IMG/VR virus record: IMGVR_UViG_3300045988_130630 | From: a virus | DNA length: 42,988 bases | Strand: one strand, 5' to 3' | Shown here: positions 9,536 through 22,402 of the stretch, one piece after another | How positions within the stretch are numbered: position 1 is the first letter of the stretch | Layout: each line of letters starts with the position of its first letter | Notes under the pieces: model-generated | What the model saw: only the letters and a program-made list of their open reading frames with translations | Told to the model about the DNA's origin: nothing | The model's database searches: none | Program-made: the position numbers and the translations under genes

Positions 9536-9599
9536 TTTCTTTGCCCCCTTTCAAGTATGATTATAACACCGCCGTTAGCAAATGTCAAGAGAAATTTTT

Positions 9600-9630
9600 G
9601 GGAGCGCCTGATTTTTTTCAGGCGCTCCCC
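9600..9630. terminator. Terminator hairpin GGGAGCGCCTGA / TCAGGCGCTCCC
   Basis: Read directly. Confidence 0.6.
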
Positions 9631-9635
9631 CTGAA

Positions 9636-10013
9636 TCAGTGGGCGAGACGGAAGTAGGACTTGCGCTTGTCCACAATCTTCTCGACGCCGTTCGCTTCAA
9701 TCATCTGACGCAGAAGAGCGGAAACGCGCTGATTGGTGAGGTCGCCCAGACCGTCCACGTTCTTGATGAGTTCGGTCACGGTATACAGCTTGTCAGGATT
9801 CGCGGACAGCTCGGCAAAGATAATGTCCTTGTAGCCGTCGTTGGCAATCTGATTCGCGGTCGGCTTCTTGTCACCGGCGTTCTTGCGGGACAGCAGGTCG
9901 ATTTCGTGGTTGATAAACTCAACCATAGCAGGGTCAGCCTGAACCTCGGACAGTTTGAGCAGAGCCTCGAAACGGTCGCGCTTGGTGAGCTTCTTAACAG
10001 TAGAAGTAGACAT
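9636..10013 (-). CDS. hypothetical protein (125 aa), paralog of 12389-12769
   Basis: About 70% identical to the product of 12389-12769. Both share the identical ribosome-binding-site context AAAGGAATTGATACTATGG and the same promoter type. Confidence 0.6.
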   Translation of the reverse strand: MSTSTVKKLTKRDRFEALLKLSEVQADPAMVEFINHEIDLLSRKNAGDKKPTANQIANDGYKDIIFAELSANPDKLYTVTELIKNVDGLGDLTNQRVSALLRQMIEANGVEKIVDKRKSYFRLAH

Positions 10014-10019
10014 AGTATC

Positions 10020-10700
10020 AATTCCTTTCTTTGGCGGTAGGTCGCTACCCTTTTGATATTATTGAGTATACCACACTTTGGAGTGCTTGTCAAGAGGTTT
10101 CGCAAACTTTTCACACGAATTACTACCCCGACCTGACGGATAATTTATTGTTTGTTGATTCAATCTATTTGTCAGCGGAAAACCGCGTCAAGGATAGTTG
10201 GTTCAATCAAACTCACTTTCGCGTTCAACGTTTGGCTTTACAACGTGGTGTATTCTGTTTACTTCCTATACTTTCTCAAGGTCGCGCGCCCTCGGATTTC
10301 TTGGGCTACTCCCTCTCGACATTTTCTATTGTAGCACACTCGCTGGGATTTGTCAAGAGGTTTTCAAGAAAAAACTCATGAATTTTTTCTTTTATCCCGT
10401 GCGTTCCGCTCCGAAGAGACCTTAACGTAATAGGCGAACGGTCTATTGCTACTTCCAACCGTAGCCCCACACCGACCTGTGGCTCAGGGGTTCCCCTCTT
10501 GACATTATTTATTGTAGCACTTTTCGCACTACTTGTCAAGAGGGAATTTCAAATTTCTTTGAAAACGGGTCAGTTACCGAGTTATCACACCCATCAGCGA
10601 AGCCGTTCGGCAATTCACTGTTCCCTCTTGACATTATCCATTATAGCAGATTGCCCATAGATTACAATTGACAAAATAACCAAATTACGGGAAAAAATTT
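10020..10700 (-). promoter_or_regulatory. Tandem array of four sigma70-type promoters (-35 hexamers at about 10085, 10360, 10525 and 10660 in plus-strand coordinates) with no convincing downstream ORF; three place ATGTC(A/G)AGAGGG 2-5 nt after the -10
   Basis: Reverse-complement reads CCTCTTGACA, 17 bp, TACAAT, then aaATAATGTCAAGAGGG. Repeated three times; the first copy drives gene 9636-10013. Confidence 0.45.
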
Positions 10701-10725
10701 TCTTCATTTTTGTGCAACTTTTCTC

Positions 10726-10754
10726 TTGACAAAATTGGCGGGGCGTGGTATAAT
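10726..10754 (+). promoter_or_regulatory. Plus-strand sigma70-type promoter (TTGACA, 17-bp spacer, TGGTATAAT) of module B, firing into the GC palindrome at 10764-10788
   Basis: Read directly. Confidence 0.5.
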
Positions 10755-10792
10755 GGTGAATTCGGCCCGCTTTGGGCGTTGGCGGGCCGGCC

Positions 10793-10821
10793 ATTTTATC
10801 ACAAAAATCCGCGTTTGTCAA
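10793..10821 (-). promoter_or_regulatory. Minus-strand promoter (TTGACA, 17-bp spacer, TAAAAT) of module B, convergent with the plus-strand promoter
   Basis: Reverse-complement reads TTGACAaacgcggatttttgtgaTAAAAT. Confidence 0.45.
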
Positions 10822-10835
10822 TAGACAAAATAGAC

Positions 10836-10870
10836 AAAAAAAACTACCCATTTTTGGGTAGTTTTTTTAT
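10836..10870. terminator. Bidirectional terminator (CTACCCA/TGGGTAG hairpin with A8 and T7 flanks)
   Basis: Read directly. Confidence 0.6.
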
Positions 10871-11116
10871 TCAATCCAAAAGGTTAATCTCGCCGGGAAT
10901 TTTGAAAGAATCAGCGTCCAGCGTGGAATTGTAGTCCTCGGTAAAGAGTTCAATCATTCCACATTCCATGATGTAATTCTGCACCGCCCGCTGAACATTT
11001 CTCCAAAGGTCAGTCTTTCGGCTTTCCTCACGGGCTTTTCTGGCTTCCTGTATCTGGATAATGAGTTCGTCCAGTTCCTCGTCGGTCATGTAATTAAAAT
11101 TCAAATCCATTTTCAA
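10871..11116 (-). CDS. hypothetical protein (81 aa)
   Basis: Supplied ORF track; ATGA overlap with the upstream gene. Confidence 0.5.
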   Translation of the reverse strand: MKMDLNFNYMTDEELDELIIQIQEARKAREESRKTDLWRNVQRAVQNYIMECGMIELFTEDYNSTLDADSFKIPGEINLLD

Positions 11117-11391
11117 AACTCCCTTTTAATTGCTTTTTCCCACACTTCACGACCGAATTTTCTCTCGCGGTCTAACTTCTTGCCAATGTCTTTTGCGGTC
11201 AGCAGGTCAAGCTCGTCCGCAATCTCGGCTTCAAAGTTTACCCAAAAGTCGTAGGTCTTGATGATGAAAACTTCATCGGCTTCAAAGACGCCGCCGCACT
11301 CGGCGCAGATAATATAGTCATGGTCGATTAAAATGCCCATGTGAGGGTCATTGTCATCAGGGACTACAAAAAGAACTTGTTTAGCGTTCAT
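11113..11391 (-). CDS. hypothetical protein (about 92 aa; start MNAKQVLF, with CxxC)
   Basis: AAAGAGG ribosome-binding site before the ATG at 11391; consensus promoter at 11421-11449. Confidence 0.5.
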   Translation of the reverse strand: MNAKQVLFVVPDDNDPHMGILIDHDYIICAECGGVFEADEVFIIKTYDFWVNFEAEIADELDLLTAKDIGKKLDRERKFGREVWEKAIKREF

Positions 11392-11420
11392 GTGAAACAC
11401 CTCTTTCATTTGATATATTG

Positions 11421-11449
11421 ATTATACCATAGGGAATAGGACTTGTCAA
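11421..11449 (-). promoter_or_regulatory. Consensus sigma70-type promoter with extended -10 (TTGACA, 17-bp spacer, TGGTATAAT)
   Basis: Reverse-complement reads cTTGACAagtcctattccctaTGgTATAAT. Confidence 0.6.
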
Positions 11450-11469
11450 GCCCTATTCCCTATTTTTTT

Positions 11470-12246
11470 TTAGCTCATGTTTACAACGGGATTTTCCTTA
11501 ATGTTTCGCATGAGCGCGCGCTGAAACTCGGTCGGCTTGGGGCGTTCCACCGTGGGAGCTTTGAAAAGGGATTTTTCCATGGGTTTGTGCTGTCGGACGC
11601 AATAGCGCAGAATCTCAACTTCAATGAGAACATCTTCAAGTCCCGTATGCGATTCATCAAAACTGTCCTCGCCGCTGATAAAGCGGTAGAGAATTTCTGC
11701 GGTAAAGCGGAGCTGTCCGTTCTTGGTCTTGTAGCCGTTCTTTTCGCAATAGTCGCGGTAAGTGGGCATCTGACCGATAACCTGTCGCGCCATTTTCAAG
11801 GTGTCCCAGATTTCAAGGTCATAGGGGAAGAAATAACGATACTTGCTTTTCGTGTCCCATCTTTGCGCATTGTTGCAGGCGTTCAAGTCGAACCGCATAT
11901 TATGAGCGCAGACAAAAGAGCAGTTATAACGCTCGACACATTCGCAGAACGCCTGACGAATTTCGTAAAGGTCAGCCATAATGCGCGAACCATTCTTAAT
12001 GTCCTCAATGTAGCGAGGAATCTTGTCGGCGTAGTATGCGGACTGCATGAGGTCGCGCTCGTAGCAGAAAATGTCGCGATTCACAAAGGAATAAGTTTCA
12101 TAAACATTTCCCTTGGAATCAATGACCGCCCAGCCGAAGTCGTAGGGAAGTACATTTGACATATCCAGCTTATCGCCGTCCTGAATGGTGTTTGCGGTTT
12201 CCGTGTCCAGCATAATGCCGTAGTTTTTGCGCCTATCAATACCCAT
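11470..12246 (-). CDS. DEDDh-family (DnaQ-like) 3'-5' exonuclease (258 aa)
   Basis: Exo I motif MLDTETAN, Exo II CAHNMRFDLN and Exo III HTGLEDV. AGGAGACG ribosome-binding site. Promoter TTGACA, 17-bp spacer, TGcTATACT at about 12305-12335. Confidence 0.6.
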   Translation of the reverse strand: MGIDRRKNYGIMLDTETANTIQDGDKLDMSNVLPYDFGWAVIDSKGNVYETYSFVNRDIFCYERDLMQSAYYADKIPRYIEDIKNGSRIMADLYEIRQAFCECVERYNCSFVCAHNMRFDLNACNNAQRWDTKSKYRYFFPYDLEIWDTLKMARQVIGQMPTYRDYCEKNGYKTKNGQLRFTAEILYRFISGEDSFDESHTGLEDVLIEVEILRYCVRQHKPMEKSLFKAPTVERPKPTEFQRALMRNIKENPVVNMS

Positions 12247-12350
12247 CTTATCGTCTCCTATTGGAAAAGTAGATTGAGGTTTACCATCGTTCTCTCAACC
12301 TCTGATAATAGTATAGCACTTTGCTATTGGTTTGTCAACAGTTTTTTTGT

Positions 12351-12380
12351 AGGGCAGGGGATTTTTTTTATCCCCTGCCC
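12351..12380. terminator. Terminator (GGGCAGGGGA / TCCCCTGCCC hairpin around a T8 run)
   Basis: Read directly. Confidence 0.6.
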
Positions 12381-12388
12381 TTTTCCCT

Positions 12389-12769
12389 TTACGCGAGGGA
12401 GAAGTAGGACTTGCGCTTGTCAACCGTCTTGACAACGGTGTTGGCTTCAATCATCTGACGCAGAAGAGCGGAAACGCGCTGATTGGTATACTCCGCGAGT
12501 TCGGGAACGGTCTTGATGAGGTCGGTCACGGTATACAGCTTGTCAGGGTTCGCGGTCATCTCGTCCAGAATGACCTGCTTCACAGCGTCATTCTCCATCT
12601 GCTTGGCCGTGGGCTTCTTGTCGCCCGCGTTCTTCTTGGCGAGCAGTTCAATCTCATGCTCGATGAACGCCACCATATCAGGATTTGCCTGAACCTCATT
12701 CATTTTGAGCAGAGCCTCGAAACGGTCGCGCTTGGTGAGCTTCTTAGTAGTAGAAGTAGAAGTAGCCAT
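12389..12769 (-). CDS. hypothetical protein (126 aa), paralog of 9636-10013
   Basis: See the paralog at 9636-10013. Promoter at about 12825-12855 (TTGACA, 17-bp spacer, TATAAT). Confidence 0.6.
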   Translation of the reverse strand: MATSTSTTKKLTKRDRFEALLKMNEVQANPDMVAFIEHEIELLAKKNAGDKKPTAKQMENDAVKQVILDEMTANPDKLYTVTDLIKTVPELAEYTNQRVSALLRQMIEANTVVKTVDKRKSYFSLA

Positions 12770-13274
12770 AGTATCAATTCCTTTCTGGTTTTTAAGACTG
12801 TCCTTGTCTTTGATGTAGTTATTATATCATAGGCGGAGCAGGTTGTCAATAGTTTTTACAAATTTTTTTTTAGGGGCGGTCGCGAGGTTTATTACTATAC
12901 ATCTTGTTTATGCCTACCTTTATCTATACTCTTAAACCAATTCAATTTACTAAGCCATTAGTTTTTAAGGCGGTGGGCGAGCATTAGAAGTCATCTTGTT
13001 TTTACCTCTCTCATTTGATGTATTCATTATACCATAGGTCGAGCGGTTTGTCAAGGGGTTTTTCAAACTTTTTTTGAAAGTTTGTTCGGCACGCCACGCT
13101 TGGAACATTCCTTGTGTCGGCTTCTGGTATGATGGTCAAAGGAACTGCCTTTCCGTAGGTCTTACTCTTTCCTCCTGACATTATGTAGTATAGCAGATTG
13201 GAACTGATTTGTCTATTAACGAAATAACCAAATTACGGGAAAAAATAAAATTGAAATTTGTGCGAAATTTCTCT

Positions 13275-13302
13275 TGACAAAAATGCTGGCAGGGTGTATA
13301 AT
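13275..13302 (+). promoter_or_regulatory. Plus-strand promoter (TTGACA, 16-bp spacer, TATAAT) of module C, firing into the palindrome CCGGCCG..CGGCCGG (13311-13337)
   Basis: Read directly. Confidence 0.5.
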
Positions 13303-13340
13303 GGTAAATTCCGGCCGTAGCGCGCGGAAACGGCCGGCCA

Positions 13341-13369
13341 ATTATATCACATTTAAGGAACTTTGTCAA
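13341..13369 (-). promoter_or_regulatory. Minus-strand promoter (TTGACA, 17-bp spacer, TATAAT) of module C
   Basis: Reverse-complement reads ctaTTGACAaagttccttaaatgtgaTATAAT. Confidence 0.5.
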
Positions 13370-13382
13370 TAGTCAAAGTAAA

Positions 13383-13420
13383 CAAAAAAAATCTCCCCGT
13401 TTTGGGGAGATTTTCTTTTA
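13383..13420. terminator. Bidirectional terminator (ATCTCCCCG/CGGGGAGAT hairpin with A8 and T-rich flanks)
   Basis: Read directly. Confidence 0.6.
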
Positions 13421-13675
13421 GCCAATTACATTGACTTCGGTTTTGACAGGCGTCACCATCTTGTCGCGCGAGAACTCGCGAACCTGACCCGTTTCAAGAT
13501 TCACCGCGTAGCAATACTGCGAACCTCTCGACCGGACAAACGGCGTGTTGTTGTTGCTGTCAATTTTGAGATACATTCCCATACCGCTACCGTTGGAGCG
13601 CAGAGTGGTGAACGTGCCACCGCTGAGAATGTTAATAATTTGGAGCTGACCCTTAGTGCCAAAATTTACTTTCAT
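13418..13675 (-). CDS. hypothetical protein (85 aa)
   Basis: Supplied ORF track; GGAGAAA ribosome-binding site. Confidence 0.5.
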   Translation of the reverse strand: MKVNFGTKGQLQIINILSGGTFTTLRSNGSGMGMYLKIDSNNNTPFVRSRGSQYCYAVNLETGQVREFSRDKMVTPVKTEVNVIG

Positions 13676-13849
13676 TTTTATTTCTCCTCTCTTAAAGCAG
13701 ATGGGTATTAACCCATTCTGCGGTCACAAGTCCGATTTCCTTAGAGACAACCGTTTCATAGCGGTAATTACCGCCATCAGTTCGTCCGGTCACTTTGGCG
13801 AGAACGCCAAGTGTCAACCAAAAATAAGGCATCATTTTTTTACCCCCTA

Positions 13850-14050
13850 TTACTTACTGCTCGGAAAGATAGCGCCCAGAAGTGCGAGGATAATCCAAAC
13901 CACGAGCGCCAGCTTCCACGAGAACACGATAACAAAAGTGCCGATTGCGGTGATACCGAGGGCGGGAAGAAGCCAGCAGAGAAGCCAGACAAGGCCCGAA
14001 GTAGCAAGGAACGAAAACGCGAGAGACAGCAGAATCAAAAGAACAAACAT
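13850..14050 (-). CDS. small membrane protein with two transmembrane helices (about 66 aa)
   Basis: Start taken at the third Met (MFVLLILLS), which has an AAAGGGGAAAA ribosome-binding site. Promoter at about 14075-14110. Confidence 0.5.
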   Translation of the reverse strand: MFVLLILLSLAFSFLATSGLVWLLCWLLPALGITAIGTFVIVFSWKLALVVWIILALLGAIFPSSK

Positions 14051-14104
14051 TTTATTTTCCCCTTTCATTTGATACATTTATTATACCATTGGAGTAGGGC
14101 TTTG

Positions 14105-14605
14105 TCAAGCCCTTTTCTCCAAAAGTTCCGAAAGTTTTTCGATAATGTTTACTGCGGTCGGGTCAATGGTTTCACCCAAGTGCCAACCATTCCGAACCTT
14201 TTCATTATCGTCAACCAAGATGGACACGTCATAGCGGTCGCGCACGCTGTCGGCCTTAGTCGCGCCATACTGGACGCCGTGAAAGTGGTCATAGTGGAAG
14301 CCCTGTTCTTCAAGCCACGCGCGCTTTGCTTCACGCACGAGGTTTTTGTATTCCTCGCTCGAATCTTTGGAAAGCCAAGTGATGATGTTGATTTCCCAGC
14401 CCTCGGCGCGGAGAAGTTCGCAAACCTCATTCAGTTCAGCCATATTGCACATGGGAACAGCAGTTCGATAGGGCTTAGGATTTTCCGAACGGAGAAGTGC
14501 AAGCCAATCCTTGACGCCGTAGAGGTCAGCAATAGTGCCGTCCATGTCAAAGTTGATGGAACGTCGAGTGGCCACAACGTGGGACTTGATGTAAGTGATT
14601 TTCAT
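14105..14605 (-). CDS. HAD-superfamily 5'(3')-deoxyribonucleotidase-like phosphatase (166 aa)
   Basis: N-terminal FDMDGTIAD (the DxDGT nucleophile motif) and later DD motifs, as in NT5C-type deoxynucleotidases. Confidence 0.55.
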   Translation of the reverse strand: MKITYIKSHVVATRRSINFDMDGTIADLYGVKDWLALLRSENPKPYRTAVPMCNMAELNEVCELLRAEGWEINIITWLSKDSSEEYKNLVREAKRAWLEEQGFHYDHFHGVQYGATKADSVRDRYDVSILVDDNEKVRNGWHLGETIDPTAVNIIEKLSELLEKRA

Positions 14606-14673
14606 AGGTATTACCCCTTTCCTTTACTGTATCTGTATTATACCATACATCTGCGCGGTTGTCAAGAGAAATT

Positions 14674-14964
14674 TTAGCAATTTCCCGCTTTATTTATCCA
14701 TTCTTTCCATTTATCTTTGGCAAACTTTTTATATTCTTCTTGCCAAATACCACCTGCAATGGCTTCTTTTACTGCGTCATCAATAGAAAGATATTGGTTG
14801 GGAAAAACAAAGTCATCACAAAAGAACCGAGTTCGACCAAAGAATTTGCGGTTAGGGCGGATAACTTCATCAACAGAGATATAGATTAGCCCATATGATT
14901 CATCGTTGTATACCTTAGCCTCAAAGGTTCTTCCCTCATATTCATAAGTTTTCGGCTTACTCAT
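14674..14964 (-). CDS. hypothetical protein (96 aa)
   Basis: Supplied ORF track; promoter at about 14990-15025. Confidence 0.5.
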   Translation of the reverse strand: MSKPKTYEYEGRTFEAKVYNDESYGLIYISVDEVIRPNRKFFGRTRFFCDDFVFPNQYLSIDDAVKEAIAGGIWQEEYKKFAKDKWKEWINKAGNC

Positions 14965-15051
14965 AGCGTTTGTCCTCCTTTACTATGCTTGTATTATACC
15001 ACTATTGGATTTGCTTGTCAAGTGTTTTTTTCAAAATTTTCGCGGTCTTTC

Positions 15052-15237
15052 TCAATACACGAAAGATAAGAAATTAAGCAAAATCAGCACAGGAATAGCG
15101 TAGACGATATTGAAAGAGTCCCACCCGAGACTTTCACAGGAATAGGCAAAAATAAAGCCAAAAACGAGGCCGAAAATGCCGATTAAAATAATCATTCTAA
15201 ATCCTCCATATGACCGTAGTGTTCGTTGATATGCCAT
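15052..15237 (-). CDS. small membrane protein (61 aa)
   Basis: Supplied ORF track; hydrophobic sequence. Confidence 0.45.
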   Translation of the reverse strand: MAYQRTLRSYGGFRMIILIGIFGLVFGFIFAYSCESLGWDSFNIVYAIPVLILLNFLSFVY

Positions 15238-15455
15238 TCAAGATAGGTATTAGTCGCAATCTGAATTTCTCTATCTAACCAGTCGTAAAAGTCCTCGGGG
15301 TCGCGGGCCATGCGTTCGTCAATAATATCAGCAAGAGAAACGCGATGGGCGATAAACTCTGAAATATCAAGAGAATCCATAGAAGAAAGAAGTTCTTCCA
15401 CACACTCTTCGCGAGTGGAGAACTTTTCAGTAGAAAAATCGTGAGTGTAATACAT
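15192..15455 (-). CDS. hypothetical acidic protein (about 88 aa, start MYYTHDF)
   Basis: The track ORF 15192-15641 was truncated to the Met that has a ribosome-binding site (AAAGGGGATACAAACAATG). Its upstream part runs across repeat module D. Confidence 0.45.
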   Translation of the reverse strand: MYYTHDFSTEKFSTREECVEELLSSMDSLDISEFIAHRVSLADIIDERMARDPEDFYDWLDREIQIATNTYLEWHINEHYGHMEDLE

Positions 15456-15574
15456 TGTTTGTATCCCCTTTCCTTTACGGTAATTATAGTATAGCAGATT
15501 ATTACATTCTTGTCTATTGGTAAAATAACCAAATTCGGGAAAATAATTAGTTAGACTTTTGGTTAAATTTCCTA

Positions 15575-15603
15575 TTGACAAATTGCTGGGATGGTGGTAT
15601 AAT
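15575..15603 (+). promoter_or_regulatory. Plus-strand promoter (TTGACA, 17-bp spacer, TGGTATAAT) of module D, firing into the palindrome at 15611-15637
   Basis: Read directly. Confidence 0.5.
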
Positions 15604-15639
15604 TGGAATTCCGGCCGTGGCATGCGCAAACGGCCGGCC

Positions 15640-15669
15640 ATTTTATCACACTATTGGGTTTTTGTCAAT
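15640..15669 (-). promoter_or_regulatory. Minus-strand promoter (TTGACA / TAAAAT) of module D
   Basis: Read directly. Confidence 0.45.
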
Positions 15670-15686
15670 AGGCAAAATAAATAAAA

Positions 15687-15720
15687 TTTTGAGACGAGAT
15701 TTGGTTATCTCGTCTCAAAA
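15687..15720. terminator. Bidirectional terminator (GAGACGAGAT/ATCTCGTCTC)
   Basis: Read directly. Confidence 0.6.
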
Positions 15721-15725
15721 TATTT

Positions 15726-16178
15726 TTAACGCTCGGACGCAATGCTGAGGTAGCGGGCAATCATGTTCATTTCGCAACTCATGTCATGCCAATCGCAGAC
15801 CACATAGCCCACAAGGTCGCCATCTGCGTGAATCGGATAAACACCATAAGTGTTATTGAAAGCGAACGGCTTATTTTCAAATTCCCACTGGGTCGGGACG
15901 TAAGCTGGAAAGTTTTCCATGCCCCGCAGTTTTACGGTGGTGTCATAGATTGCGATGGGGCGCAAGCCGGACTTTGACGCCATCGTGATAGCGGTTCGCA
16001 TACAATCTTCGGTCAAAGAGCCAAGCACCGAATACCTCTTGAAGCAAACGCAGTCGTTATCTTCAATGAAGATTTCGAGCGGGTCGCCCTCGCGAATCTT
16101 CAAAGTCCGACGAATTTCTTTCGGAACGACCACACGTCCAAGGTCATCAATTCTGCGAATAATACCAGTAGCTTTCAT
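15726..16178 (-). CDS. AbrB/SpoVT(MazE)-family DNA-binding domain protein (150 aa)
   Basis: N-terminal MKATGIIRRIDDLGRVVVPKEIRRTLKIREGDPLEIF matches the swapped-hairpin AbrB N-domain consensus (K.TGIVRK.D.LGRVVIP.E.R..L.I...D.LEI). Confidence 0.65.
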   Translation of the reverse strand: MKATGIIRRIDDLGRVVVPKEIRRTLKIREGDPLEIFIEDNDCVCFKRYSVLGSLTEDCMRTAITMASKSGLRPIAIYDTTVKLRGMENFPAYVPTQWEFENKPFAFNNTYGVYPIHADGDLVGYVVCDWHDMSCEMNMIARYLSIASER

Positions 16179-16242
16179 TTTAATTTTCCCCTTTCACTTG
16201 ATACGTTAAGTATAGCAGAACAAAAGGCTTTTGTCAAGTCCT

Positions 16243-16716
16243 TTATTCAAGATTTTTGCTTTCTGCGACAAAATATTTTGCTTCGTATTGATTGGCAATA
16301 GCCTTGACTTTTGCGCTTTCCTTTTGGGTCGCGCAGTAAAAATTGAAAAGCGTATGTTTATCGCTCAATTCAATGTAAGAGTGCGGAACATCATGCAAAT
16401 CAAAATCAATGGTGTTAGTGTATTTTGTCGGGACAGTCAGTTCGACTTTCCATAATCGGTCTTTGCGGGCTTTCTCTTCAATCCACTTGACAAAGTAAAC
16501 GCCCACGAAATTACAAACGGCAGTAATAGCCATTTTCAACCAGATAGGCATACCGTCCGCGGAAGTCAGCACAATCACATAGGAATAAAAACCATAAGTG
16601 ATAGCGTTGATAAGAGATGCGCTGACTTTTCCACCATTGACAGTTAAAATGCTTTTGATGGTTGACAGAATCACATTCACCGCCGTGCAAAGCGCGAATA
16701 GAAGAATTGTATTCAT
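16243..16716 (-). CDS. membrane protein (157 aa; three N-terminal transmembrane helices plus a cytoplasmic domain)
   Basis: Supplied ORF track. Confidence 0.5.
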   Translation of the reverse strand: MNTILLFALCTAVNVILSTIKSILTVNGGKVSASLINAITYGFYSYVIVLTSADGMPIWLKMAITAVCNFVGVYFVKWIEEKARKDRLWKVELTVPTKYTNTIDFDLHDVPHSYIELSDKHTLFNFYCATQKESAKVKAIANQYEAKYFVAESKNLE

Positions 16717-16961
16717 TCTATCACCTCAATGTCGCAATAAATACAGTCGGTAATATCGACGTATTCCTCAAAACTCATTCTTTTATCATCGCGGTGGGTA
16801 AAGTCGATGTAGGCATCTCTACCGCGAAGATTATTTTCTTCATTGTATGCGTGAGTGGCATTATCAAAAGCCTTAATAGCGTCAGCTTCATTATAAACCA
16901 CCACTTCTTTGACTTCCGGAGCATCATACCAAATAGTATATTTCTTTTTCATTATTATCAC
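16713..16961 (-). CDS. hypothetical protein (82 aa)
   Basis: Supplied ORF track; ATGA overlap. Confidence 0.5.
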   Translation of the reverse strand: MIIMKKKYTIWYDAPEVKEVVVYNEADAIKAFDNATHAYNEENNLRGRDAYIDFTHRDDKRMSFEEYVDITDCIYCDIEVIE

Positions 16962-17176
16962 CCTTTCCTTTTTCTATTATAATAATATCATAATATAATA
17001 GAAATGTCAATAGAGAGTTTTTAATTTACTCTTTTAATTTTTCTAATAGGTCATCAGCACAGTCATAGCTGATGCCTCTGCGGTCGCATTGGTCAGACAA
17101 AGGGCAACAAGCGCAGTCATTAAAGGTTTCCGTCCAAGCGCGCAACCAGTCAATCAAGCGCAAGACGTTAACTTCC

Positions 17177-17521
17177 TCATACATTGTCGTCATTCTCCTT
17201 TACTCGGACAAAAAAGACCTTGTTATAAATTTTCTCTGCTTTAAGGTCAATCCAAAAATATACATTACCGCATACTCGATAGATTTTGCAAGTCTCTCCA
17301 CTAACCTTTTTGACTTCTTCAAACTTCTCTTGCGTAGTGGGGTGAAAAATCGTCAGTTTGAGAAATATGCAATAGAAAGATAAAGGAACGAAGCCGATAA
17401 TCAGAGCAATCCATGCAAGAACGTCAGTCAAGGTGTTTTCCCATTCACACCACTCATCGGTAATTGTAGCGAACGCGATACCCACGCAAAACGCGAGAAT
17501 CAACCAATACCATGCCACCAT
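17177..17521 (-). CDS. membrane protein (114 aa, two transmembrane helices)
   Basis: Supplied ORF track; AAGGGGG ribosome-binding site; promoter at about 17545-17590. Confidence 0.5.
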   Translation of the reverse strand: MVAWYWLILAFCVGIAFATITDEWCEWENTLTDVLAWIALIIGFVPLSFYCIFLKLTIFHPTTQEKFEEVKKVSGETCKIYRVCGNVYFWIDLKAEKIYNKVFFVRVKENDDNV

Positions 17522-17671
17522 TATTTTATTCCCCCTTTATTTGTTGTATACATCTTACCACATTATAGGATTTTTGTCTATTGGCATTTTACACAAAAAT
17601 TCGTGCGAAAATTTGTTGAACTTACCTCTTGACAAAAAACTCGGCGCGCCACAATCGTCCGCGCGCCGACG

Positions 17672-17700
17672 ATTTTATCACATTCAAGGAACTTTGTCAA
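17672..17700 (-). promoter_or_regulatory. Minus-strand promoter of module E (TTGACA, 17-bp spacer, TAAAAT); the palindrome CGGCGCGCC..GGCGCGCCG lies at 17642-17668
   Basis: Read directly. In this copy the plus-strand -35 element (17629-17634) has no -10. Confidence 0.45.
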
Positions 17701-17712
17701 TAGTGAAAGTAA

Positions 17713-17748
17713 ACAAAAAAAATCACCCAATTTGGGTGATTTTTCATT
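17713..17748. terminator. Bidirectional terminator (ATCACCCAA/TTGGGTGAT)
   Basis: Read directly. Confidence 0.6.
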
Positions 17749-17924
17749 TAGTTTCCTACGGCTTCGAGGTCGACGAGAATGGGAACGAGCTTGTCTTCAA
17801 GAAGCGCGACACGCTCAATCATTTCATTTGCTGCTGTTCCGCCCGACGGGTATCTCTTCTGAATGCCGTATCGAGCCATTCTGCACACCGTTTCAACAAC
17901 CTCGCTCAGTTTCTCATTCTTCAT
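17748..17924 (-). CDS. hypothetical protein (about 58 aa, start MKNEKL)
   Basis: GGAGATAAG ribosome-binding site. Confidence 0.4.
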   Translation of the reverse strand: MKNEKLSEVVETVCRMARYGIQKRYPSGGTAANEMIERVALLEDKLVPILVDLEAVGN

Positions 17925-18035
17925 TTTTCTTATCTCCATTCAATTTATTTTTTGGAAAGGGTGGCGGTTGTTTCAGGCACAACCGCCAAAGCCATAGGAA
18001 AGGGGGAGAAAAACACGAACAAAAGTTCGGTTTTG

Positions 18036-18284
18036 TCAAGGGATAATCAGTTCCGCGTCATAGACAGGCCGAACCATGCAGGGCGCGCCAAAACAGTCGA
18101 GATTGTAAGTGTCTAAATTGAGAGCGTTCCATTCTTCTGCACCGGTATCTTCATCAACCACAGTCGCGATTTTGATGTAATAGACGTTTCCAGAAGCAGG
18201 GTCTTGAAAAATCATACCCTCGGGGAGGTCTTCAAATGCAACCATTTTGTTGCTATGCTTAACAGTAATTTTCATTTCGTTCAC
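18036..18284 (-). CDS. hypothetical protein (82 aa)
   Basis: Supplied ORF track. Confidence 0.5.
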   Translation of the reverse strand: MNEMKITVKHSNKMVAFEDLPEGMIFQDPASGNVYYIKIATVVDEDTGAEEWNALNLDTYNLDCFGAPCMVRPVYDAELIIP

Positions 18285-18634
18285 CCTTTATAATAGTATT
18301 TGTAAGCCCATTCAATGATTTCATGGCTTGTGGTAGTCCATTCCTCTTTGGGACTATCGAACTTTTCCGCATACTTTTTGATGTAGTTATTATACTCCAT
18401 GCGCGCGGTGTCGTATGCTCCAATAGCCACAATTAAAGCGTGTTTCGCTTCTTCGGCGTCGGAGGCTGCTTTCTTGCGGTCGGGGCAGTCAGGATAAAGG
18501 TTAATCACCCCTACGCGCGTAATGGCTTGCCTTGTCTTTTCATAAAGGCGGTCGCGCTCTTCCCAAACCTTATAAATCAAATCGTCTGCGCGATTTTCAT
18601 AAGGGTTGAAAGGCTTCTTTTTCTTACCGAACAT
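18281..18634 (-). CDS. hypothetical protein (about 117 aa, start MFGKKKK)
   Basis: Track ORF truncated to the Met that has a ribosome-binding site. Confidence 0.45.
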   Translation of the reverse strand: MFGKKKKPFNPYENRADDLIYKVWEERDRLYEKTRQAITRVGVINLYPDCPDRKKAASDAEEAKHALIVAIGAYDTARMEYNNYIKKYAEKFDSPKEEWTTTSHEIIEWAYKYYYKG

Positions 18635-18964
18635 TTTTCTTTTTCTCCTTTTCCTGTTTATTCCACATTCTATCAAAGAACGCATTTGCGAGAACATGCT
18701 TGTAAAGGTTATCAGGCATGGGGCGCTCACCGTGCTTGTTTCTCCAAATCGCGGTGATTTTATCAATATCCGCGATATAGGCGGTAATGAGTGTGCCATC
18801 GGAAGCGCTACGAACGAGAAGAACGCCGGTTGTAGTGATAGTGTAGAGAATATCGTTCTCAACGCTGTCGATATATGGTTCGCCGATTCCTACATTATCG
18901 TAGATGAAGAGCAGGCGGTCAATACGGTCTTGCGTGGCGTGTTTTGACATTTTGATAAGCATTT
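18624..18964 (-). CDS. hypothetical protein (about 113 aa, start MLIKMSKH)
   Basis: AAAGAGG ribosome-binding site; promoter at about 18985-19030. Confidence 0.45.
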
Positions 18965-19034
18965 GTTTTACCTCTTTCTTTTTCTCTTGGATTGATTGTA
19001 TTATACCATATGGGGAGGGGCTTGTCAAGCCCCT

Positions 19035-19184
19035 TTAATATAATTGTTCCCCATCGTGGTAGCGCTCATATTCCGCTTCAAGGAAGTCGAGAATAGTTTC
19101 AAAGTCGTCTGCATCTGCGGGGTCTGCAAAGACCTTTTCAAGGACTTCGTTAGTGTGCCAATTGTAAACTCGAATAATATCCAT
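19035..19184 (-). CDS. small acidic protein (49 aa) MDIIRVYNWHTNEVLEKVFADPADADDFETILDFLEAEYERYHDGEQLY
   Basis: Not in the ORF track because it is shorter than 60 aa. GAAAGAGG ribosome-binding site; consensus promoter at 19215-19243. Confidence 0.5.
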   Translation of the reverse strand: MDIIRVYNWHTNEVLEKVFADPADADDFETILDFLEAEYERYHDGEQLY

Positions 19185-19214
19185 TTTACTTACCTCTTTC
19201 TTGATTGTATATGT

Positions 19215-19243
19215 ATTATATCATGCGGAAGGGCTTTTGTCAA
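19215..19243 (-). promoter_or_regulatory. Consensus sigma70-type promoter (TTGACA, 17-bp spacer, TATAAT)
   Basis: Reverse-complement read directly. Confidence 0.6.
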
Positions 19244-19257
19244 GCCCTTTTTATCAG

Positions 19258-19461
19258 AAATGATAATTTCTGATGATGGCGTCGAACTTGGGAGCATATA
19301 CGGTTTCCCACTGTTCTTCAAGAGTCTGGTCATTCGTGCGATATAATTCCCACGAGACTGCACCATAAGCGTTATGCTTGAAAAACTCGGCATCGCAGGG
19401 CATCTGCTCGGCATAGAGAAGCTGGGTCTTGATAAAAGAGTGAATGTTGTAGTTAGTCATT
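19258..19461 (-). CDS. hypothetical protein (about 68 aa, start MTNYNIHSF)
   Basis: Track ORF truncated. Promoter TAGACA, 17-bp spacer, TATATT at about 19480-19530. Confidence 0.45.
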
Positions 19462-19586
19462 TTATTTACCTCATCTTTCTGTTCCCTTGGAACAATTATA
19501 ATATAACACACCCTTAGAGATTTGTCTATTGACGGATCGCACAAAATTGGGAAAAATAATTTGTGCAAATTTTCGCAACTTTTTGC

Positions 19587-19615
19587 TTGATAAATTGCTG
19601 ACCCTGTGATATAAT
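19587..19615 (+). promoter_or_regulatory. Plus-strand promoter (TTGATA, 17-bp spacer, TATAAT) of module F, firing into the palindrome CCGGGCGCG..CGCGCCCGG (19623-19649)
   Basis: Read directly. Confidence 0.5.
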
Positions 19616-19832
19616 GGAAATTCCGGGCGCGTGGGCCGTGCGCGCCCGGCCGAACGACCATTGTTAAAATTTTAACAAAAATAAAATAGAAAGGGCGCGG
19701 TAATTATCGGCTACCGCGCAAACCATAGTATGAAAAATTTGTTTACTACTTCAAGAGGCTTACCATTTCCTCTTGACATGATTATAATACCACAACGGGG
19801 CGAGTTTGTCAATAGTTTTTTGAAAAAAATTT

Positions 19833-19860
19833 TCAGGCGAGATAATTAAATCTCGCCTGA
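19833..19860. terminator. Terminator hairpin TCAGGCGAGAT/ATCTCGCCTGA
   Basis: Read directly. Confidence 0.55.
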
Positions 19861-19863
19861 AAA

Positions 19864-20070
19864 TTATTCGTCCCAAATAGCTCCCGCAATCCAAAAGTAT
19901 TCATAGCGGAGTTTCGACTGAAACGCAAATAAAGCATCTGCGATTTCTCCACCGATTTCGCGGTCATCTGCCACGGGAAGCGTCTGACTTTCTTTCGCAA
20001 TTCTTTGAGCCAACTTTTCAAGGGCGTCTGCCTGTTCTCTCAAAGCCTGCGGGATAGGTTTTTCATTCAT
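19864..20070 (-). CDS. hypothetical protein (about 68 aa, start MNEKPIPQ)
   Basis: AAGGGGGAAA ribosome-binding site. Confidence 0.45.
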   Translation of the reverse strand: MNEKPIPQALREQADALEKLAQRIAKESQTLPVADDREIGGEIADALFAFQSKLRYEYFWIAGAIWDE

Positions 20071-20419
20071 TATTTGTTTCCCCCTTTGCAAAATTAGATG
20101 TTAGCTCTAACGTATGTCCGCATTTATCACAATACCAATAGTAAAAAACTGTTCCATGCCGACCGTGAGAAGCATTTACAAATTCCATTTCATTTCCGCA
20201 GATGGAGCAATAGCCGTCATTCCATGCCTTTTTATCGGCATTGTGTTCTGCAATTATCATGCCCACCATACCATAGCCAAGGGCGCATGAAATGAGAAGA
20301 CCAGCCAACAGTCTGGCTATTGGGTGAGACTTTTCCATGTTGCACCAACAGATAAGGCAAATGAACATTGCCAGAACTGCGCTGATGATTCCGCCACAAA
20401 TTAAGAATTCTGCTCCCAT
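20063..20419 (-). CDS. membrane protein with a C-terminal CxxC...CxxC zinc ribbon (about 118 aa)
   Basis: Track ORF with the start taken at MGAEFLICGG. Confidence 0.5.
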   Translation of the reverse strand: MGAEFLICGGIISAVLAMFICLICWCNMEKSHPIARLLAGLLISCALGYGMVGMIIAEHNADKKAWNDGYCSICGNEMEFVNASHGRHGTVFYYWYCDKCGHTLELTSNFAKGETNNE

Positions 20420-20422
20420 TTT

Positions 20423-20494
20423 TATTTCCCCTCTCCGCATTTAACGCATTGAGCGTGTGTTCCGCACTTCCCATCACAATAAGGACATTCCATT
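20423..20494 (-). CDS. 23-aa zinc-ribbon micro-protein MECPYCDGKCGTHAQCVKCGEGK
   Basis: AGGGGAATAAAAAAATG ribosome-binding site and start. Its stop overlaps the start of the downstream membrane Zn-ribbon gene. Confidence 0.35.
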
Positions 20495-20570
20495 TTTTTA
20501 TTCCCCTTTCCTTTGATACATTAAGTATAGCAGAAAAAGGGCTTTTTGTCAAGCCCTTTTTCTTATTTTT

Positions 20571-20927
20571 TTATTCTTTTTCTCGAATGGAATAATAAAC
20601 CTTACTCCCTCGCGGCCTGCGTTTGAGTTTATGGTCGAGGTATAACTGCATACAATACCAAGTGAATTTGCCGTTGGCATACTCATAGCCATACTTTTTG
20701 AATGCCATAAACTGCATTTCAGTCGGCGTGATAGGTCTGCCCGCCTCGTTCAGCAGTTCAAAGACGAGTTTAATCATCTGCTGATTTTTCCATTCGCGTT
20801 CCTCGCGGTCGGCTTTTAAGTCTCTTTCATATTTGTCGCAAGCGTGTTCCGCGATACTCAGATCAATGGGCGAGAGAGTGCCCGACGCGATAGCCTTTTT
20901 CAAAACTTCATAGATATCCTTGTTCAT
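20571..20927 (-). CDS. hypothetical protein (118 aa)
   Basis: Supplied ORF track; promoter at about 20950-20990. Confidence 0.5.
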   Translation of the reverse strand: MNKDIYEVLKKAIASGTLSPIDLSIAEHACDKYERDLKADREEREWKNQQMIKLVFELLNEAGRPITPTEMQFMAFKKYGYEYANGKFTWYCMQLYLDHKLKRRPRGSKVYYSIREKE

Positions 20928-21026
20928 TGTAGTTTCCCCTTTCCTTTATTGTGCTTTTATTATAGCATCTGTTTTTGGATTTGTCAAGGGCTTTTTGGAA
21001 AAAGAGGGAAAAATTTCCCTCTTTAT

Positions 21027-21299
21027 TTATCCCCAATAGACCGAAAGAACGCCGTCAATGTAGCTGGCTTTATAACCATAATTCTGCATGATATTTTTGC
21101 AAGCCTGCTTGACGCCCTTTTCATTTAATGAAGCAAGATTGCACTCATAAACTGTTTCTCCCGTTCCTGCCACACGCTCAATTTCCGGCATGATATGGTC
21201 TTCGATAAACGCACATGCGAGGGCATTATTTTTAGCTTGGATTTCTCTGCGGACTTCTTCGGCCTTGCGCGTCATTTCATAAGCATATTTAATTTCCAT
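21027..21299 (-). CDS. hypothetical protein (90 aa)
   Basis: Supplied ORF track. Confidence 0.5.
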   Translation of the reverse strand: MEIKYAYEMTRKAEEVRREIQAKNNALACAFIEDHIMPEIERVAGTGETVYECNLASLNEKGVKQACKNIMQNYGYKASYIDGVLSVYWG

Positions 21300-21364
21300 G
21301 TTGTTTTCTCCCTTTCCTTTGATGCTTTTATTATAGCATATAGGGCTTGTTTTGTCAAGCCTTT

Positions 21365-21493
21365 TTAAGAAATTTCAAAAATTTCTTCGTAGCCATCGTC
21401 CCATGCCTGTCGGCATTTCGTGTTATCTTCATTAGTGTATTCATCATAGCCGAAGCCCATGGATTCAACACGTCCTACAAAAATCCATTTCAT
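21365..21493 (-). CDS. small protein (42 aa) MKWIFVGRVESMGFGYDEYTNEDNTKCRQAWDDGYEEIFEIS
   Basis: AAAGGGGATAATTAAATG ribosome-binding site and start; consensus promoter at 21526-21554. Confidence 0.45.
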   Translation of the reverse strand: MKWIFVGRVESMGFGYDEYTNEDNTKCRQAWDDGYEEIFEIS

Positions 21494-21525
21494 TTAATTA
21501 TCCCCTTTCCTCAACTTCTGATACT

Positions 21526-21554
21526 ATTATACCCCACAGGGTGAGAAATGTCAA
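21526..21554 (-). promoter_or_regulatory. Consensus sigma70-type promoter (TTGACA, 17-bp spacer, GGTATAAT)
   Basis: Read directly. Confidence 0.6.
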
Positions 21555-21562
21555 TAGTTTTT

Positions 21563-22363
21563 TTAATTATTTTCTGTAATGTATTCCCATCTTAACCGTT
21601 CTCCTGTATCCGGGTCTTTACCGGCTGTTTTTAATTGTCCGCGCAAACAACGACCAATAGCATCTTTGTATGTATTGTAGTATGCTTCGGCTTCTCTTAC
21701 TGATAGAAACTCTTTGCCATTATTCAAGCATCTAATTCGTTTACCGCTCTTTAATTTGTTTGCCTGTGGCCCCAATGCCAAATTTTTCTTTGTTTCTTCT
21801 GGGTGCCGTTCTCTCCATTCAATCAATGCTTGTTTGCCTTGTTCTCTGTATTGTTGCGCTTTTTCTGGATGTGCAGCAATCCATTGTTTTAATACTTCTG
21901 GATTGCCTGTATTACATTCAGGATGTTCTTTTTGCCACTCATGGCATTTTTTTATATTTTGTTTACCCAATTTAGATACAATTTCTTTATGTTCATTCTA
22001 CCATTTTTTTACAGCATCTATCCGGCGTTGTTGAAATTCTTGTGCTTCTTTTGGGTGTTCTTGTAAGTATAGGTGGAAATACTCAAAACCACCACCATCA
22101 CCGCCACAGGCTAAATTGTAAAATTCTTCACTATTGACAGCGTTGTATTTTTCAATGTATTGCTTTTCTAATTCGTTGGCTTCTTCTTTTGTCTCGCAAG
22201 TTGCTAATGTAATTTTAGAAAAATTTTCTCGTCCATACTTTTTTATTGCTTCTCGTAAAATTTTCCCACTACCTAAATAATAATCATTCTTTTTAGATAA
22301 TTTGTGCTATCCTAAATATTTTTTATCATTGACTAAATTAGTAGTCAAATAAATTTCATACAT
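21563..22363 (-). CDS. TAG-recoded GIY-YIG homing endonuclease with a C-terminal NUMOD-like helix-turn-helix (266 aa), in an AT-rich island inside the GC-rich early block
   Basis: N-terminal MYEIYLTTNLVNDKKYLG(TAG)HKL, where the TAG encodes the Gln of the YIGQ motif. Further features are ..E..E..YI..Y and a C-terminal ..KRIRCLNNGKEFLSVREAEAYY...IGRCLRG..KTAG...W.YI. There are two in-frame TAGs and no other stop until 21565. GAAAGGA ribosome-binding site. The supplied track ORF 21563-21970 is the C-terminal part. Confidence 0.65.
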
Positions 22364-22402
22364 AATAAAAAATTCCTTTCTGCTTCATTCTATTATAATT
22401 AA

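What the first reader, a model, noticed from the sequence alone, without database searches (positions are those of the whole stretch)
15726..16178. AbrB/SpoVT-type transition-state-regulator domain encoded by the phage
The N-terminal 50 aa are a near-consensus AbrB swapped-hairpin DNA-binding domain fused to a roughly 100-aa domain of unknown function. The gene sits in the middle of the early block with its own promoter.

A phage-borne AbrB-like protein could reprogram host stationary-phase or sporulation regulons, or regulate the repeated palindromes and promoters described above.
Basis: partly seen in the sequence, partly recalled or inferred. Interest (0 to 1): 0.55.

Follow-up and report, generated by a model that had tools for sequence, protein, structure and literature searches.

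The report
Phage-encoded short SpoVT-like DNA-binding regulator
A large gut phage carries, among its early genes, a shortened copy of the bacterial sporulation regulator SpoVT under its own strong promoter; it probably lets the phage interfere with host sporulation or stationary-phase gene control, which surveys have already proposed for such genes and nobody has tested.

Summary
Window 15726-16178, minus strand, is a 150-aa gene. Its first ~50 residues pass the curated cut-offs of the AbrB/MazE models (PF04014, TIGR01439). It has its own sigma-A-type promoter and an intrinsic terminator, and it sits inside a ~19-kb block of about 40 consensus early promoters.

Two refinements:
- The N-domain is SpoVT-type rather than AbrB-type: 76% identity to the SpoVT N-domain against 54% to AbrB.

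There is no toxin partner, so the PHROG label "antitoxin" is misleading.

The gene is a conserved single-gene early cassette, under strong purifying selection (dN/dS 0.09). It occurs in a lineage of ~100-200 kb gut phages. In this window the late genes read TAG as a sense codon. More distant relatives lie in other large presumably phage contigs and on a conjugative element. No relatives were found in reference bacterial genomes.

Most likely it is a tetrameric DNA-binding mimic of host SpoVT made at the wrong time and place; its targets are unknown.

Phage abrB/spoVT homologs are already reported from surveys, so this is a new member of a known kind. Interest is moderate.

The parts
16232..16237 (-). 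-35 hexamer TTGACA of the gene's own sigma-A-type promoter. It lies in the loop of a short hairpin just after the stop codon of the upstream gene.
   Evidence: The same promoter is found 59-61 nt (81 nt in one locus) upstream of the ATG in 19 of 20 IMG/VR relatives.
16209..16217 (-). Extended -10 element TGc-TATACT, 17-nt spacer from the -35. The transcription start is predicted near 16202.
   Evidence: 11 of 12 matches, TG present; sequence.
16188..16195 (-). Shine-Dalgarno-like GAAAGGGG, 9 nt upstream of the ATG.
   Evidence: The same motif precedes most genes of the block.
16029..16178 (-). Codons 1-50: swapped-hairpin AbrB/SpoVT-type DNA-binding domain. Arg8, Arg9, Arg15, Arg23 and Arg24 are conserved.
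   Evidence: PF04014 and TIGR01439 above cut-off. SpoVT N-domain 2ro5 E=2.8e-20 against AbrB 1.2e-12. 76% against 54% identity. The Arg residues are kept in at least 141 of 145 family members. dN/dS 0.045.
15729..16016 (-). Codons 55-150: trimmed GAF-like domain (helix, five strands, C-terminal helix). It is collinear with SpoVT_C but about 26 residues shorter. Family motifs: AIYD, FP..VP..W, VYPI...GY.
15726..15728 (-). TAA stop codon.
   Evidence: All 20 IMG/VR relatives also stop with TAA.
15686..15721 (-). Intrinsic terminator (15-bp stem, loop of 6, T-run), palindromic and so readable on both strands. It makes the gene a single-gene transcription unit.
   Evidence: I2. A terminator follows the stop in the relatives as well.

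Best explanation
The gene encodes a 'mini-SpoVT', a transcription factor of the AbrB/SpoVT superfamily.

What it is (shown or well supported):
- The N-terminal swapped-hairpin domain is nearly the same as that of the bacterial forespore regulator SpoVT and keeps the DNA-contacting arginines.
- The C-terminal domain is a stripped-down version of the SpoVT GAF domain.

How it most likely works (inferred):
- The N-domains pair into DNA-binding dimers. The GAF-like domains pair these into tetramers, as in SpoVT.
- The trimmed GAF has lost much of the side that forms a ligand pocket in other GAF domains. It would then act mainly as an oligomerisation module, and the protein would be signal-independent.
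- The phage transcribes it as a single-gene unit from a consensus sigma-A early promoter, so it appears minutes after infection in the vegetative or mother cell. Host SpoVT, by contrast, is made only late, in the forespore, under sigma-G.
- The best-supported function is molecular mimicry. The protein would occupy host SpoVT/AbrB-type sites, or co-assemble with host family members, to disturb the stationary-phase and sporulation programme in favour of lytic growth.
For: Shown:
- Domain identity.
- SpoVT is the best structural match for the whole protein and for the C-domain.
- The C-domain profile aligns collinearly with a SpoVT_C profile, P=1.5e-4.
- Residues 1-40 are 85% identical to Bacillus SpoVT. 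They stay 70-93% identical in distant family members whose C-domains are only 27-51% identical to the window's.
- Arg8, 9, 15, 23 and 24 are conserved.
- Strong purifying selection on both domains: dN/dS 0.093 at dS of about 1.
- Own consensus sigma-A promoter plus terminator, conserved in 19 of 20 viral relatives although the downstream neighbours differ.
- Location in a standard-code block of about 40 early promoters and small ORFan genes.
- 226 clusters at 90% identity. The close relatives and the distant ones whose surroundings could be judged lie on large phage-like contigs (about 100-200 kb) or on a conjugative element; two distant relatives sit on contigs too short to judge. None is in the 185,579 reference bacterial genomes.

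From the literature:
- Phage spoVT and abrB homologs are enriched in gut phages of spore-formers (PMC10294663; bioRxiv 10.1101/2021.07.15.452460).
- AbrB and Abh bind as homo- and heteromers (PMC3025583).
Against: - No binding site, target gene or host is identified. The host is only inferred to be a Firmicute, possibly of the Clostridia. The grounds are the promoter and RBS style, virion proteins related to phages of Enterococcus, Lactococcus, Bacillus and Clostridium, and a related TAG-recoded phage, phAss-1, whose predicted host is in the Eubacteriales.
- Whether the host sporulates is unknown.
- In a non-sporulating cell the sigma-G regulon is silent, so a pure SpoVT mimic would have little to act on.
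- High N-domain conservation could reflect fold and dimerisation constraints rather than shared targets.
- Tetramer formation and loss of ligand binding are inferred from a monomer model only.
- One relative (L002) lacks its own promoter.
Confidence: 0.45

Rival explanations
1. It is the phage's own transcriptional regulator. The protein binds phage DNA, for example the early promoters or the repeated promoter/GC-hairpin modules, one of which lies directly downstream of the gene. It would shut off or time early transcription (early-to-middle switch, or autoregulation), with no direct host target.
For: - AbrB-fold proteins are common small regulators in phages and archaeal viruses.
- The gene sits among about 40 near-identical early promoters that must be turned off at some point.
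- A promoter/GC-hairpin module follows the gene in the window, in many close relatives, and in a different sequence version in 67-68%-identical relatives L023, L025 and L026. A comparable hairpin follows the distant homolog in L004.
- The only perfect AbrB-type TGGNA-W4-TGGNA site in the window (15595-15608) lies in that module.
Against: - No sequence element beyond -35, TG and -10 is shared by the 44 promoters.
- The hairpin stems differ in sequence between copies, which fits an RNA or DNA structure better than a sequence-specific operator.
- AbrB/Abh motifs are not enriched: 1 found against 3.2 expected, and 4 against 7.2.
- A regulator retargeted to phage operators would be expected to drift in its DNA-reading surface, yet the N-domain stays SpoVT-like across distant phage and conjugative-element members.
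- The modules occur about six times in the block, so adjacency may be chance or inherited synteny.
Confidence: 0.3
2. It is a dominant-negative poison. Through its near-identical swapped-hairpin N-domain the protein forms mixed dimers or tetramers with host SpoVT, AbrB or Abh-like proteins and inactivates them, rather than acting as a regulator itself.
For: - The N-domain is 85% identical to SpoVT over residues 1-40.
- The fold dimerises by strand swapping (established for 1yfb, 2ro5 and 2w1t).
- AbrB/Abh heteromers exist in vivo (PMC3025583).
- The C-domain has diverged and been trimmed, so mixed oligomers would be structurally aberrant.
Against: - The DNA-contacting arginines are strictly conserved. 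A pure poison would not need them.
- The C-domain is itself under purifying selection (dN/dS 0.116).
- Nothing here tests protein-protein interaction.
Confidence: 0.12
3. It is an antitoxin, or an antitoxin mimic, of a MazE/AbrB-fold type II toxin-antitoxin system. This is the label of the best PHROG family.
For: phrog_4681 'antitoxin from a toxin-antitoxin system', E=7e-19. The Pfam family name is MazE_antitoxin.
Against: - The gene is a single-gene unit with its own promoter and terminator.
- None of 44 neighbouring genes has any recorded Pfam hit, and the immediate neighbours have no Pfam or PADLOC hit.
- The neighbours vary between relatives.
- The C-terminal part is a folded GAF-like domain, not the extended toxin-binding tail of MazE-type antitoxins.
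- The N-domain matches SpoVT far better than MazE models: 95.7 bits against 19.8.
Confidence: 0.03

Closest known systems
Bacillus subtilis SpoVT (PDB 2w1t, 2w1r, 2ro5; TIGR02851; Pfam PF04014 + PF15714)
   Same: - Same two-domain architecture: an AbrB-type swapped-hairpin N-domain followed by a GAF-type C-domain.
- 76% identity over the N-domain.
- Best sequence and fold match for the whole protein.
- The C-domains are collinear.
   Different: - 150 aa against 178 aa. The C-domain lacks about 26 residues and is only about 21% identical.
- PF15714 is not detected, and the TIGR02851 score is 95.7 against a cut-off of 235.9.
- It is driven by a sigma-A consensus early phage promoter instead of a sigma-G forespore promoter.
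- It is encoded by phages and a conjugative element, not by the chromosome.
AbrB and Abh transition-state regulators (PDB 1yfb, 1z0r, 2k1n, 2fy9)
   Same: N-terminal swapped-hairpin DNA-binding fold with conserved arginines.
   Different: - Only 43-55% identical in the N-domain.
- AbrB and Abh have a short (~40 aa) C-terminal multimerisation domain, not a GAF-like domain.
Phage-encoded sporulation regulators found in surveys: spoVT (K04769), abrB (K06284), truncated spo0A and sigF/sigG homologs (Schwartz et al. 2023, PMC10294663; Bernard et al. 2021 bioRxiv). Also UniProt A0A8S5PY96, 'Stage V sporulation protein T [Siphoviridae sp. ct2vX3]', 137 aa.
   Same: - The same idea: a phage carries a cut-down copy of a host sporulation transcription factor.
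- A short viral 'SpoVT' already sits in BFVD as the best viral fold match: 30% identity over 144 columns.
- The sensor part is truncated, as with phage spo0A copies that lack the receiver domain.
   Different: - Those reports are catalogue-level. They give no domain analysis of the C-terminal part, no promoter or cassette analysis, and no experiments on spoVT or abrB homologs.
- Bernard et al. describe abrB linked to quorum-sensing systems in temperate phages. This gene is a stand-alone early cassette in a phage lineage for which no chromosomal (prophage) copy was found.
MazE/AbrB-fold type II antitoxins (PF04014 members; phrog_4681)
   Same: They share the N-terminal fold and therefore the family hit.
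   Different: No toxin partner, a single-gene unit, and a folded GAF-like C-terminus.
SPO1-type host-takeover modules (Bacillus phage SPO1 genes 37-60; from general knowledge, not tested here)
   Same: A dense array of small genes, each with strong sigma-A early promoters, strong ribosome-binding sites and terminators.
   Different: No sequence relationship was shown. SPO1's module is not known to contain a SpoVT-like gene.

Membership tests
AbrB/MazE/SpoVT superfamily (PF04014, TIGR01439) | The N-terminal swapped-hairpin (looped-hinge helix) domain scores above the curated cut-off. | tested here: met
   PF04014 37.3 bits against 24.7; TIGR01439 42 bits against 28.3. PDB N-domains E 1e-12 to 3e-20.
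AbrB/MazE/SpoVT superfamily (PF04014, TIGR01439) | The DNA-contacting arginines are conserved (AbrB R8, R15, R23, R24; established from AbrB mutagenesis and NMR work). | tested here: met
   R8, R9, R15, R23 and R24 are invariant in A2 and present in at least 141 of 145 family members.
SpoVT proper (TIGR02851 equivalog) | The full-length score reaches the equivalog cut-off. | tested here: not met
   95.7 bits against a cut-off of 235.9; only residues 2-66 match.
SpoVT proper (TIGR02851 equivalog) | A C-terminal SpoVT_C (PF15714) GAF domain. | tested here: inconclusive
   - PF15714 is not detected even at E<=1, although true SpoVTs carry it.
- Profile-profile P=1.5e-4, collinear, about 26 residues shorter.
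SpoVT proper (TIGR02851 equivalog) | Forespore-specific, sigma-G-dependent expression from a chromosomal locus. | tested here: not met
   The promoter is a TTGACA-17-TGnTATACT sigma-A consensus inside a phage early block. There are no copies in the reference bacterial genomes.
AbrB/Abh transition-state regulators | A short C-terminal multimerisation domain (total length about 92-96 aa) and the AbrB-type N-domain sequence. | tested here: not met
   150 aa with a GAF-like C-domain. The N-domain is 54-55% identical to AbrB and 76% to SpoVT.
Type II antitoxin (MazE-like) | Co-transcribed adjacent toxin gene. | tested here: not met
   Own promoter and terminator. The neighbours have no Pfam or PADLOC hits and vary between relatives.
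GAF domain superfamily | The GAF fold (antiparallel sheet flanked by helices). | tested here: met
GAF domain superfamily | A small-molecule binding pocket. | not testable with these tools
   Only the secondary structure of the model is available. The segments missing relative to SpoVT lie between strands 2 and 4. The model coordinates could not be inspected.

The most novel reading that the evidence does not exclude
The mini-SpoVT would be a signal-blind mimic or poison of the host's forespore regulator. A whole lineage of TAG-recoded gut phages, with no chromosomal copy found, would fire it within minutes of infection. Either by occupying SpoVT/AbrB-type sites or by co-assembling with the host proteins through the almost identical swapped-hairpin domain, it would derail spore maturation or the entry into stationary phase, so that the infected cell cannot escape into dormancy. 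That would be the first mechanistic example of a phage using a late-sporulation transcription factor as a host-takeover weapon.
Probability: 0.25. Interest if true: 0.65.

Novelty: new member of a known kind. Interest (0 to 1): 0.4.

Why it matters
Spore formation governs the persistence and transmission of many gut Firmicutes, and it is also a refuge from phages. Surveys have shown that gut phages carry cut-down sporulation regulators, but no spoVT or abrB homolog has been studied.

This gene is a clean candidate for such a study:
- It is small and strongly conserved, and it is transcribed on its own from a consensus early promoter.
- It is present across a widespread lineage of large, amber-recoded gut phages.
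- Its DNA-binding domain is close enough to Bacillus SpoVT to be tested directly in model spore-formers.

It also shows that the automatic label 'antitoxin' for this PHROG family is wrong for these members.

Tried and rejected
- **First structure model:** the first AlphaFold model, from 32 close homologs (A1), was unusable at pLDDT 50. A more diverse 15-sequence alignment (A2) gave pLDDT 88.
- **Prophage or bacterial copies:** the searches for the C-domain in 185,579 reference genomes found nothing. An 11-sequence alignment was too divergent for the locus scan.
- **AbrB/Abh binding motifs:** TNCCA-W4-TGGNA and TGGNA-W4-TGGNA are not enriched in the window. The test is weak, because the SpoVT motif is unknown and TGGTA is part of the extended -10 element.
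- **Shared operator:** none was found around the 44 promoters.
- **Other scans:** PADLOC found no defence-system hit, Rfam no family, ARAGORN no tRNA or suppressor tRNA in the window, and tblastn no paralog of the gene in the window.
- **Antitoxin reading:** rejected; see the rival explanations.
- **Metal or redox site:** Cys43, 45, 128 and 135 are 77-97% conserved in the close lineage but absent from distant members.
- **Host identity:** it could not be established.

Full report
**1. The observation**

Window 15726-16178 holds a 150-aa ORF on the minus strand, with an ATG start and a TAA stop.
- Residues 7-41 match Pfam PF04014 (MazE_antitoxin / SpoVT-AbrB) at E=2.7e-9, 37.3 bits against a gathering score of 24.7.
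- They also match NCBIfam TIGR01439 (AbrB-family domain) at 42 bits against 28.3.
- Against solved structures the best hits are B. subtilis SpoVT (2w1t E=4e-22; N-domain 2ro5 2.8e-20), then AbrB (1.2e-12) and Abh (3.9e-9).

**2. Anatomy of the transcription unit**

On the minus strand the gene is preceded by:
- TTGACA (16237-16232), a 17-nt spacer and TGc-TATACT (16214-16209);
- a GAAAGGGG ribosome-binding site 9 nt before the ATG.

It is followed, 4 nt after the stop, by a 15-bp-stem hairpin with a T-run (15721-15686). It is a single-gene unit.

The surrounding minus-strand block, about 8000-27200, carries some 40 such promoters with the Gram-positive style TRTGnTATAAT extended -10 element, plus many terminators.
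- The scan of 8000-27500 finds 101 promoter-like sites on both strands against 41.7 +/- 6.4 in shuffles.
- The genes are short, and none of 44 neighbouring genes has a Pfam hit on record.

This looks like a host-takeover or early block. That is an inference from its architecture; no expression data exist.

**3. What the element is**

The window is part of a 193,261-bp metagenomic contig, ENA ERZ27261577 k99_39008.
- Proteins in the plus-strand part of the window match PHROG virion-protein families.
- They also match structural proteins of large siphoviruses of Enterococcus, Lactococcus, Brevibacillus, Bacillus and Clostridium, and of the human-gut phage phAss-1.

Read with TAG as a sense codon, the plus strand 27290-41965 turns from fragments into 13 tightly packed long ORFs.
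- These ORFs hold 50 in-frame TAGs, all end in TAA, and CAG is depleted where TAG is used.
- None of 40 early-block genes uses TAG as a stop.

So this is an amber-recoded phage whose early block, including the gene in question, is readable in the standard code.
- phAss-1 relatives are predicted to infect Clostridia/Eubacteriales (PMC10607447).
- Recoding of late genes is a known phenomenon (bioRxiv 10.1101/2021.08.26.457843).

The host of this phage was not identified.

**4. The C-terminal domain**

A search of 1.84 billion representative proteins with residues 52-150 alone found only about a dozen 50%-identity clusters, of 146-155 aa. The full-length ones retrieved all have the same SpoVT-like N-terminus. 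There was also one 181-aa protein and a few spurious repeat proteins.

- A 15-sequence alignment of these (A2) gave a confident AlphaFold model: pLDDT 88.3, pTM 0.79.
- Foldseek against the PDB puts full-length SpoVT first (2w1t_A, E=2e-10), followed by many GAF domains.
- At sequence level the family profile aligns to SpoVT residues 1-156 at E=1e-30, against 4.5e-28 for the N-domain alone.
- A profile of the C-domains aligns collinearly with a profile of 19 true SpoVT C-domains at P=1.5e-4. The phage domain is about 26 residues shorter.
- The Pfam model of that domain, PF15714, which true SpoVTs carry, does not detect the phage protein. The SpoVT equivalog model scores 95.7 bits against a cut-off of 235.9.

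Conclusion: this is a SpoVT-derived or SpoVT-like protein with a trimmed GAF domain. It is not an ortholog of SpoVT.

**5. Distribution and selection**

- The C-domain defines 226 clusters at 90% identity. The 120 best hits listed all belong to the same lineage, are mostly 149-150 aa (a few are shorter fragments), and often lie on contigs of 181-197 kb.
- Twenty IMG/VR viral contigs of 97-197 kb carry the gene.
- Distant members also lie in blocks of small ORFan genes on contigs of 130 kb and 19 kb. Two others sit on contigs too short to judge. The 181-aa relative lies on a conjugative element next to a TraG/VirD4 coupling protein.
- No relative of the C-domain exists in one genome each of 185,579 bacterial and archaeal species. 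This argues against chromosomal (prophage) copies in sequenced species.
- In 19 of 20 viral relatives the gene again has its own TTGACA-16-to-18-nt-TAnnnT promoter, 59-81 nt upstream of the ATG. A terminator hairpin follows the stop in most of them, although the downstream genes differ. One relative, L002, lacks the promoter.
- Against an 83%-identical homolog, dN/dS is 0.093 at dS of about 1. The N-domain is at 0.045 and the C-domain at 0.116.
- Residues 1-40 are 85% identical to Bacillus SpoVT. They stay 70-93% identical in distant members whose C-domains are only 27-51% identical to the window's.
- The arginines that contact DNA in AbrB-type domains are conserved.

**6. Mechanism**

Shown: the protein has an intact SpoVT-type DNA-binding domain and a GAF-like second domain, and both are under purifying selection. 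It is transcribed on its own from a consensus sigma-A promoter in the early block, and it has no toxin partner.

Inferred:
- It assembles like SpoVT, with N-domain dimers joined through the C-domains, and binds DNA.
- The trimmed GAF serves mainly for oligomerisation, so the protein is independent of whatever signal SpoVT senses.
- Because the DNA-reading domain is kept SpoVT-like across very divergent phage and conjugative-element copies, its targets or partners are host-type. The protein would then be a mimic expressed at the wrong time and place, disturbing sporulation or stationary-phase regulation. I give this about 0.45.

Rivals:
- A regulator of the phage's own early promoters or of the repeated promoter/GC-hairpin modules, one of which lies directly downstream (about 0.3). 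No shared operator was found, and AbrB/Abh motifs are not enriched.
- Dominant-negative co-assembly with host family members (about 0.12).
- An antitoxin (about 0.03), contradicted by the single-gene unit, the lack of a toxin and the folded C-domain.

**7. Comparison with what is known, and novelty**

- Schwartz et al. 2023 (PMC10294663) list spoVT (K04769) and abrB (K06284) among sporulation regulators enriched in gut phages of spore-formers. They note that phage spo0A copies lack the sensor domain.
- Bernard et al. 2021 report many AbrB-model hits in the Gut Phage Database.
- BFVD already holds a 137-aa 'Stage V sporulation protein T' from an uncultured siphovirus as the best viral fold match.

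The kind is therefore known at catalogue level. What is added here is the domain dissection (trimmed GAF), the conserved early single-gene cassette, the restriction to mobile elements, the recoded-phage context, and the correction of the 'antitoxin' label (phrog_4681).

Verdict: real, correctly read by the first stage, a new member of a known kind, of moderate interest, and a good experimental handle.

Noticed in passing
window 27290-41965 (+), compared with 8000-27200 (-): The late, structural block is amber-recoded. With TAG read through, 13 tightly packed ORFs of 190-580 aa appear. They hold 50 in-frame TAGs, all stop with TAA, and CAG is depleted. The early block uses the standard code: 0 of 40 genes stop with TAG. 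No suppressor tRNA lies in the window.
   Followed up: partly
window 8509-8537, 10726-10821, 13274-13369, 15575-15668, 17672-17700, 22934-22962: A repeated intergenic module:
- A minus-strand consensus promoter is followed at once by a GC-rich hairpin. The stem sequence differs between copies while the structure is kept.
- In three copies a perfect plus-strand promoter faces it, so the two convergent promoters lie 93-95 bp apart.
- A conserved 'ttttcccgaatttggttatt' stretch and a second promoter, TAGACA-17-TATACT, then follow (13215, 15516, 19528, 22842).
- No Rfam match.

Possible roles: tiny RNAs, 5' stabiliser hairpins, or transcriptional interference devices.
   Followed up: partly
window 15595-15608 (+): The only perfect AbrB-type TGGNA-W4-TGGNA site in the window (TGGTATAATTGGAA) lies in the plus-strand promoter of the module just downstream of the mini-SpoVT gene. 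Overall the motif is not enriched, so this may be chance.
   Followed up: partly
window 8000-26000 compared with 1-8000 and 26000-42988: G+C changes in a step. The standard-code early block is at 0.40-0.45. The flanking, partly recoded regions are at 0.29-0.39. Unexplained.
   Followed up: no
window 16232-16245 and 20532-20563; also L002, L003 and L011-L027 downstream of the gene: Hairpins just after the upstream gene's stop codon, terminator-like, carry the -35 TTGACA of the next promoter in their loop or stem. These look like compact terminator-promoter junctions and recur throughout the block and in relatives.
   Followed up: no
residues C43, C45, C128, C135 of the protein (window 15774-16052, -): Four cysteines are conserved in 77-97% of 145 close family members but absent from distant members. 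They may form a lineage-specific disulfide, metal or redox site. Distances in the model could not be measured.
   Followed up: partly
window 14105-14605 (-) and 11470-12246 (-): Two of the few early-block genes with any annotation:
- 14105-14605 is a HAD-type phosphatase resembling the polynucleotide-kinase phosphatase domain or a 5'-3' deoxyribonucleotidase. PF25109 is below its cut-off; phrog_415 and phrog_2643 match at about 5e-8.
- 11470-12246 is a 258-aa protein of phrog_20187 (E=2e-41), with weak similarity to a DNA polymerase exonuclease subunit.
   Followed up: no
L006/L007 6001-6546: A 181-aa relative (P0156) has a longer C-domain, intermediate between the mini form and SpoVT. It sits on a conjugative element next to TraG/VirD4, LPD28 and a phage-type lysozyme, on contigs of up to 238 kb. 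The family is therefore shared between phages and conjugative elements.
   Followed up: partly
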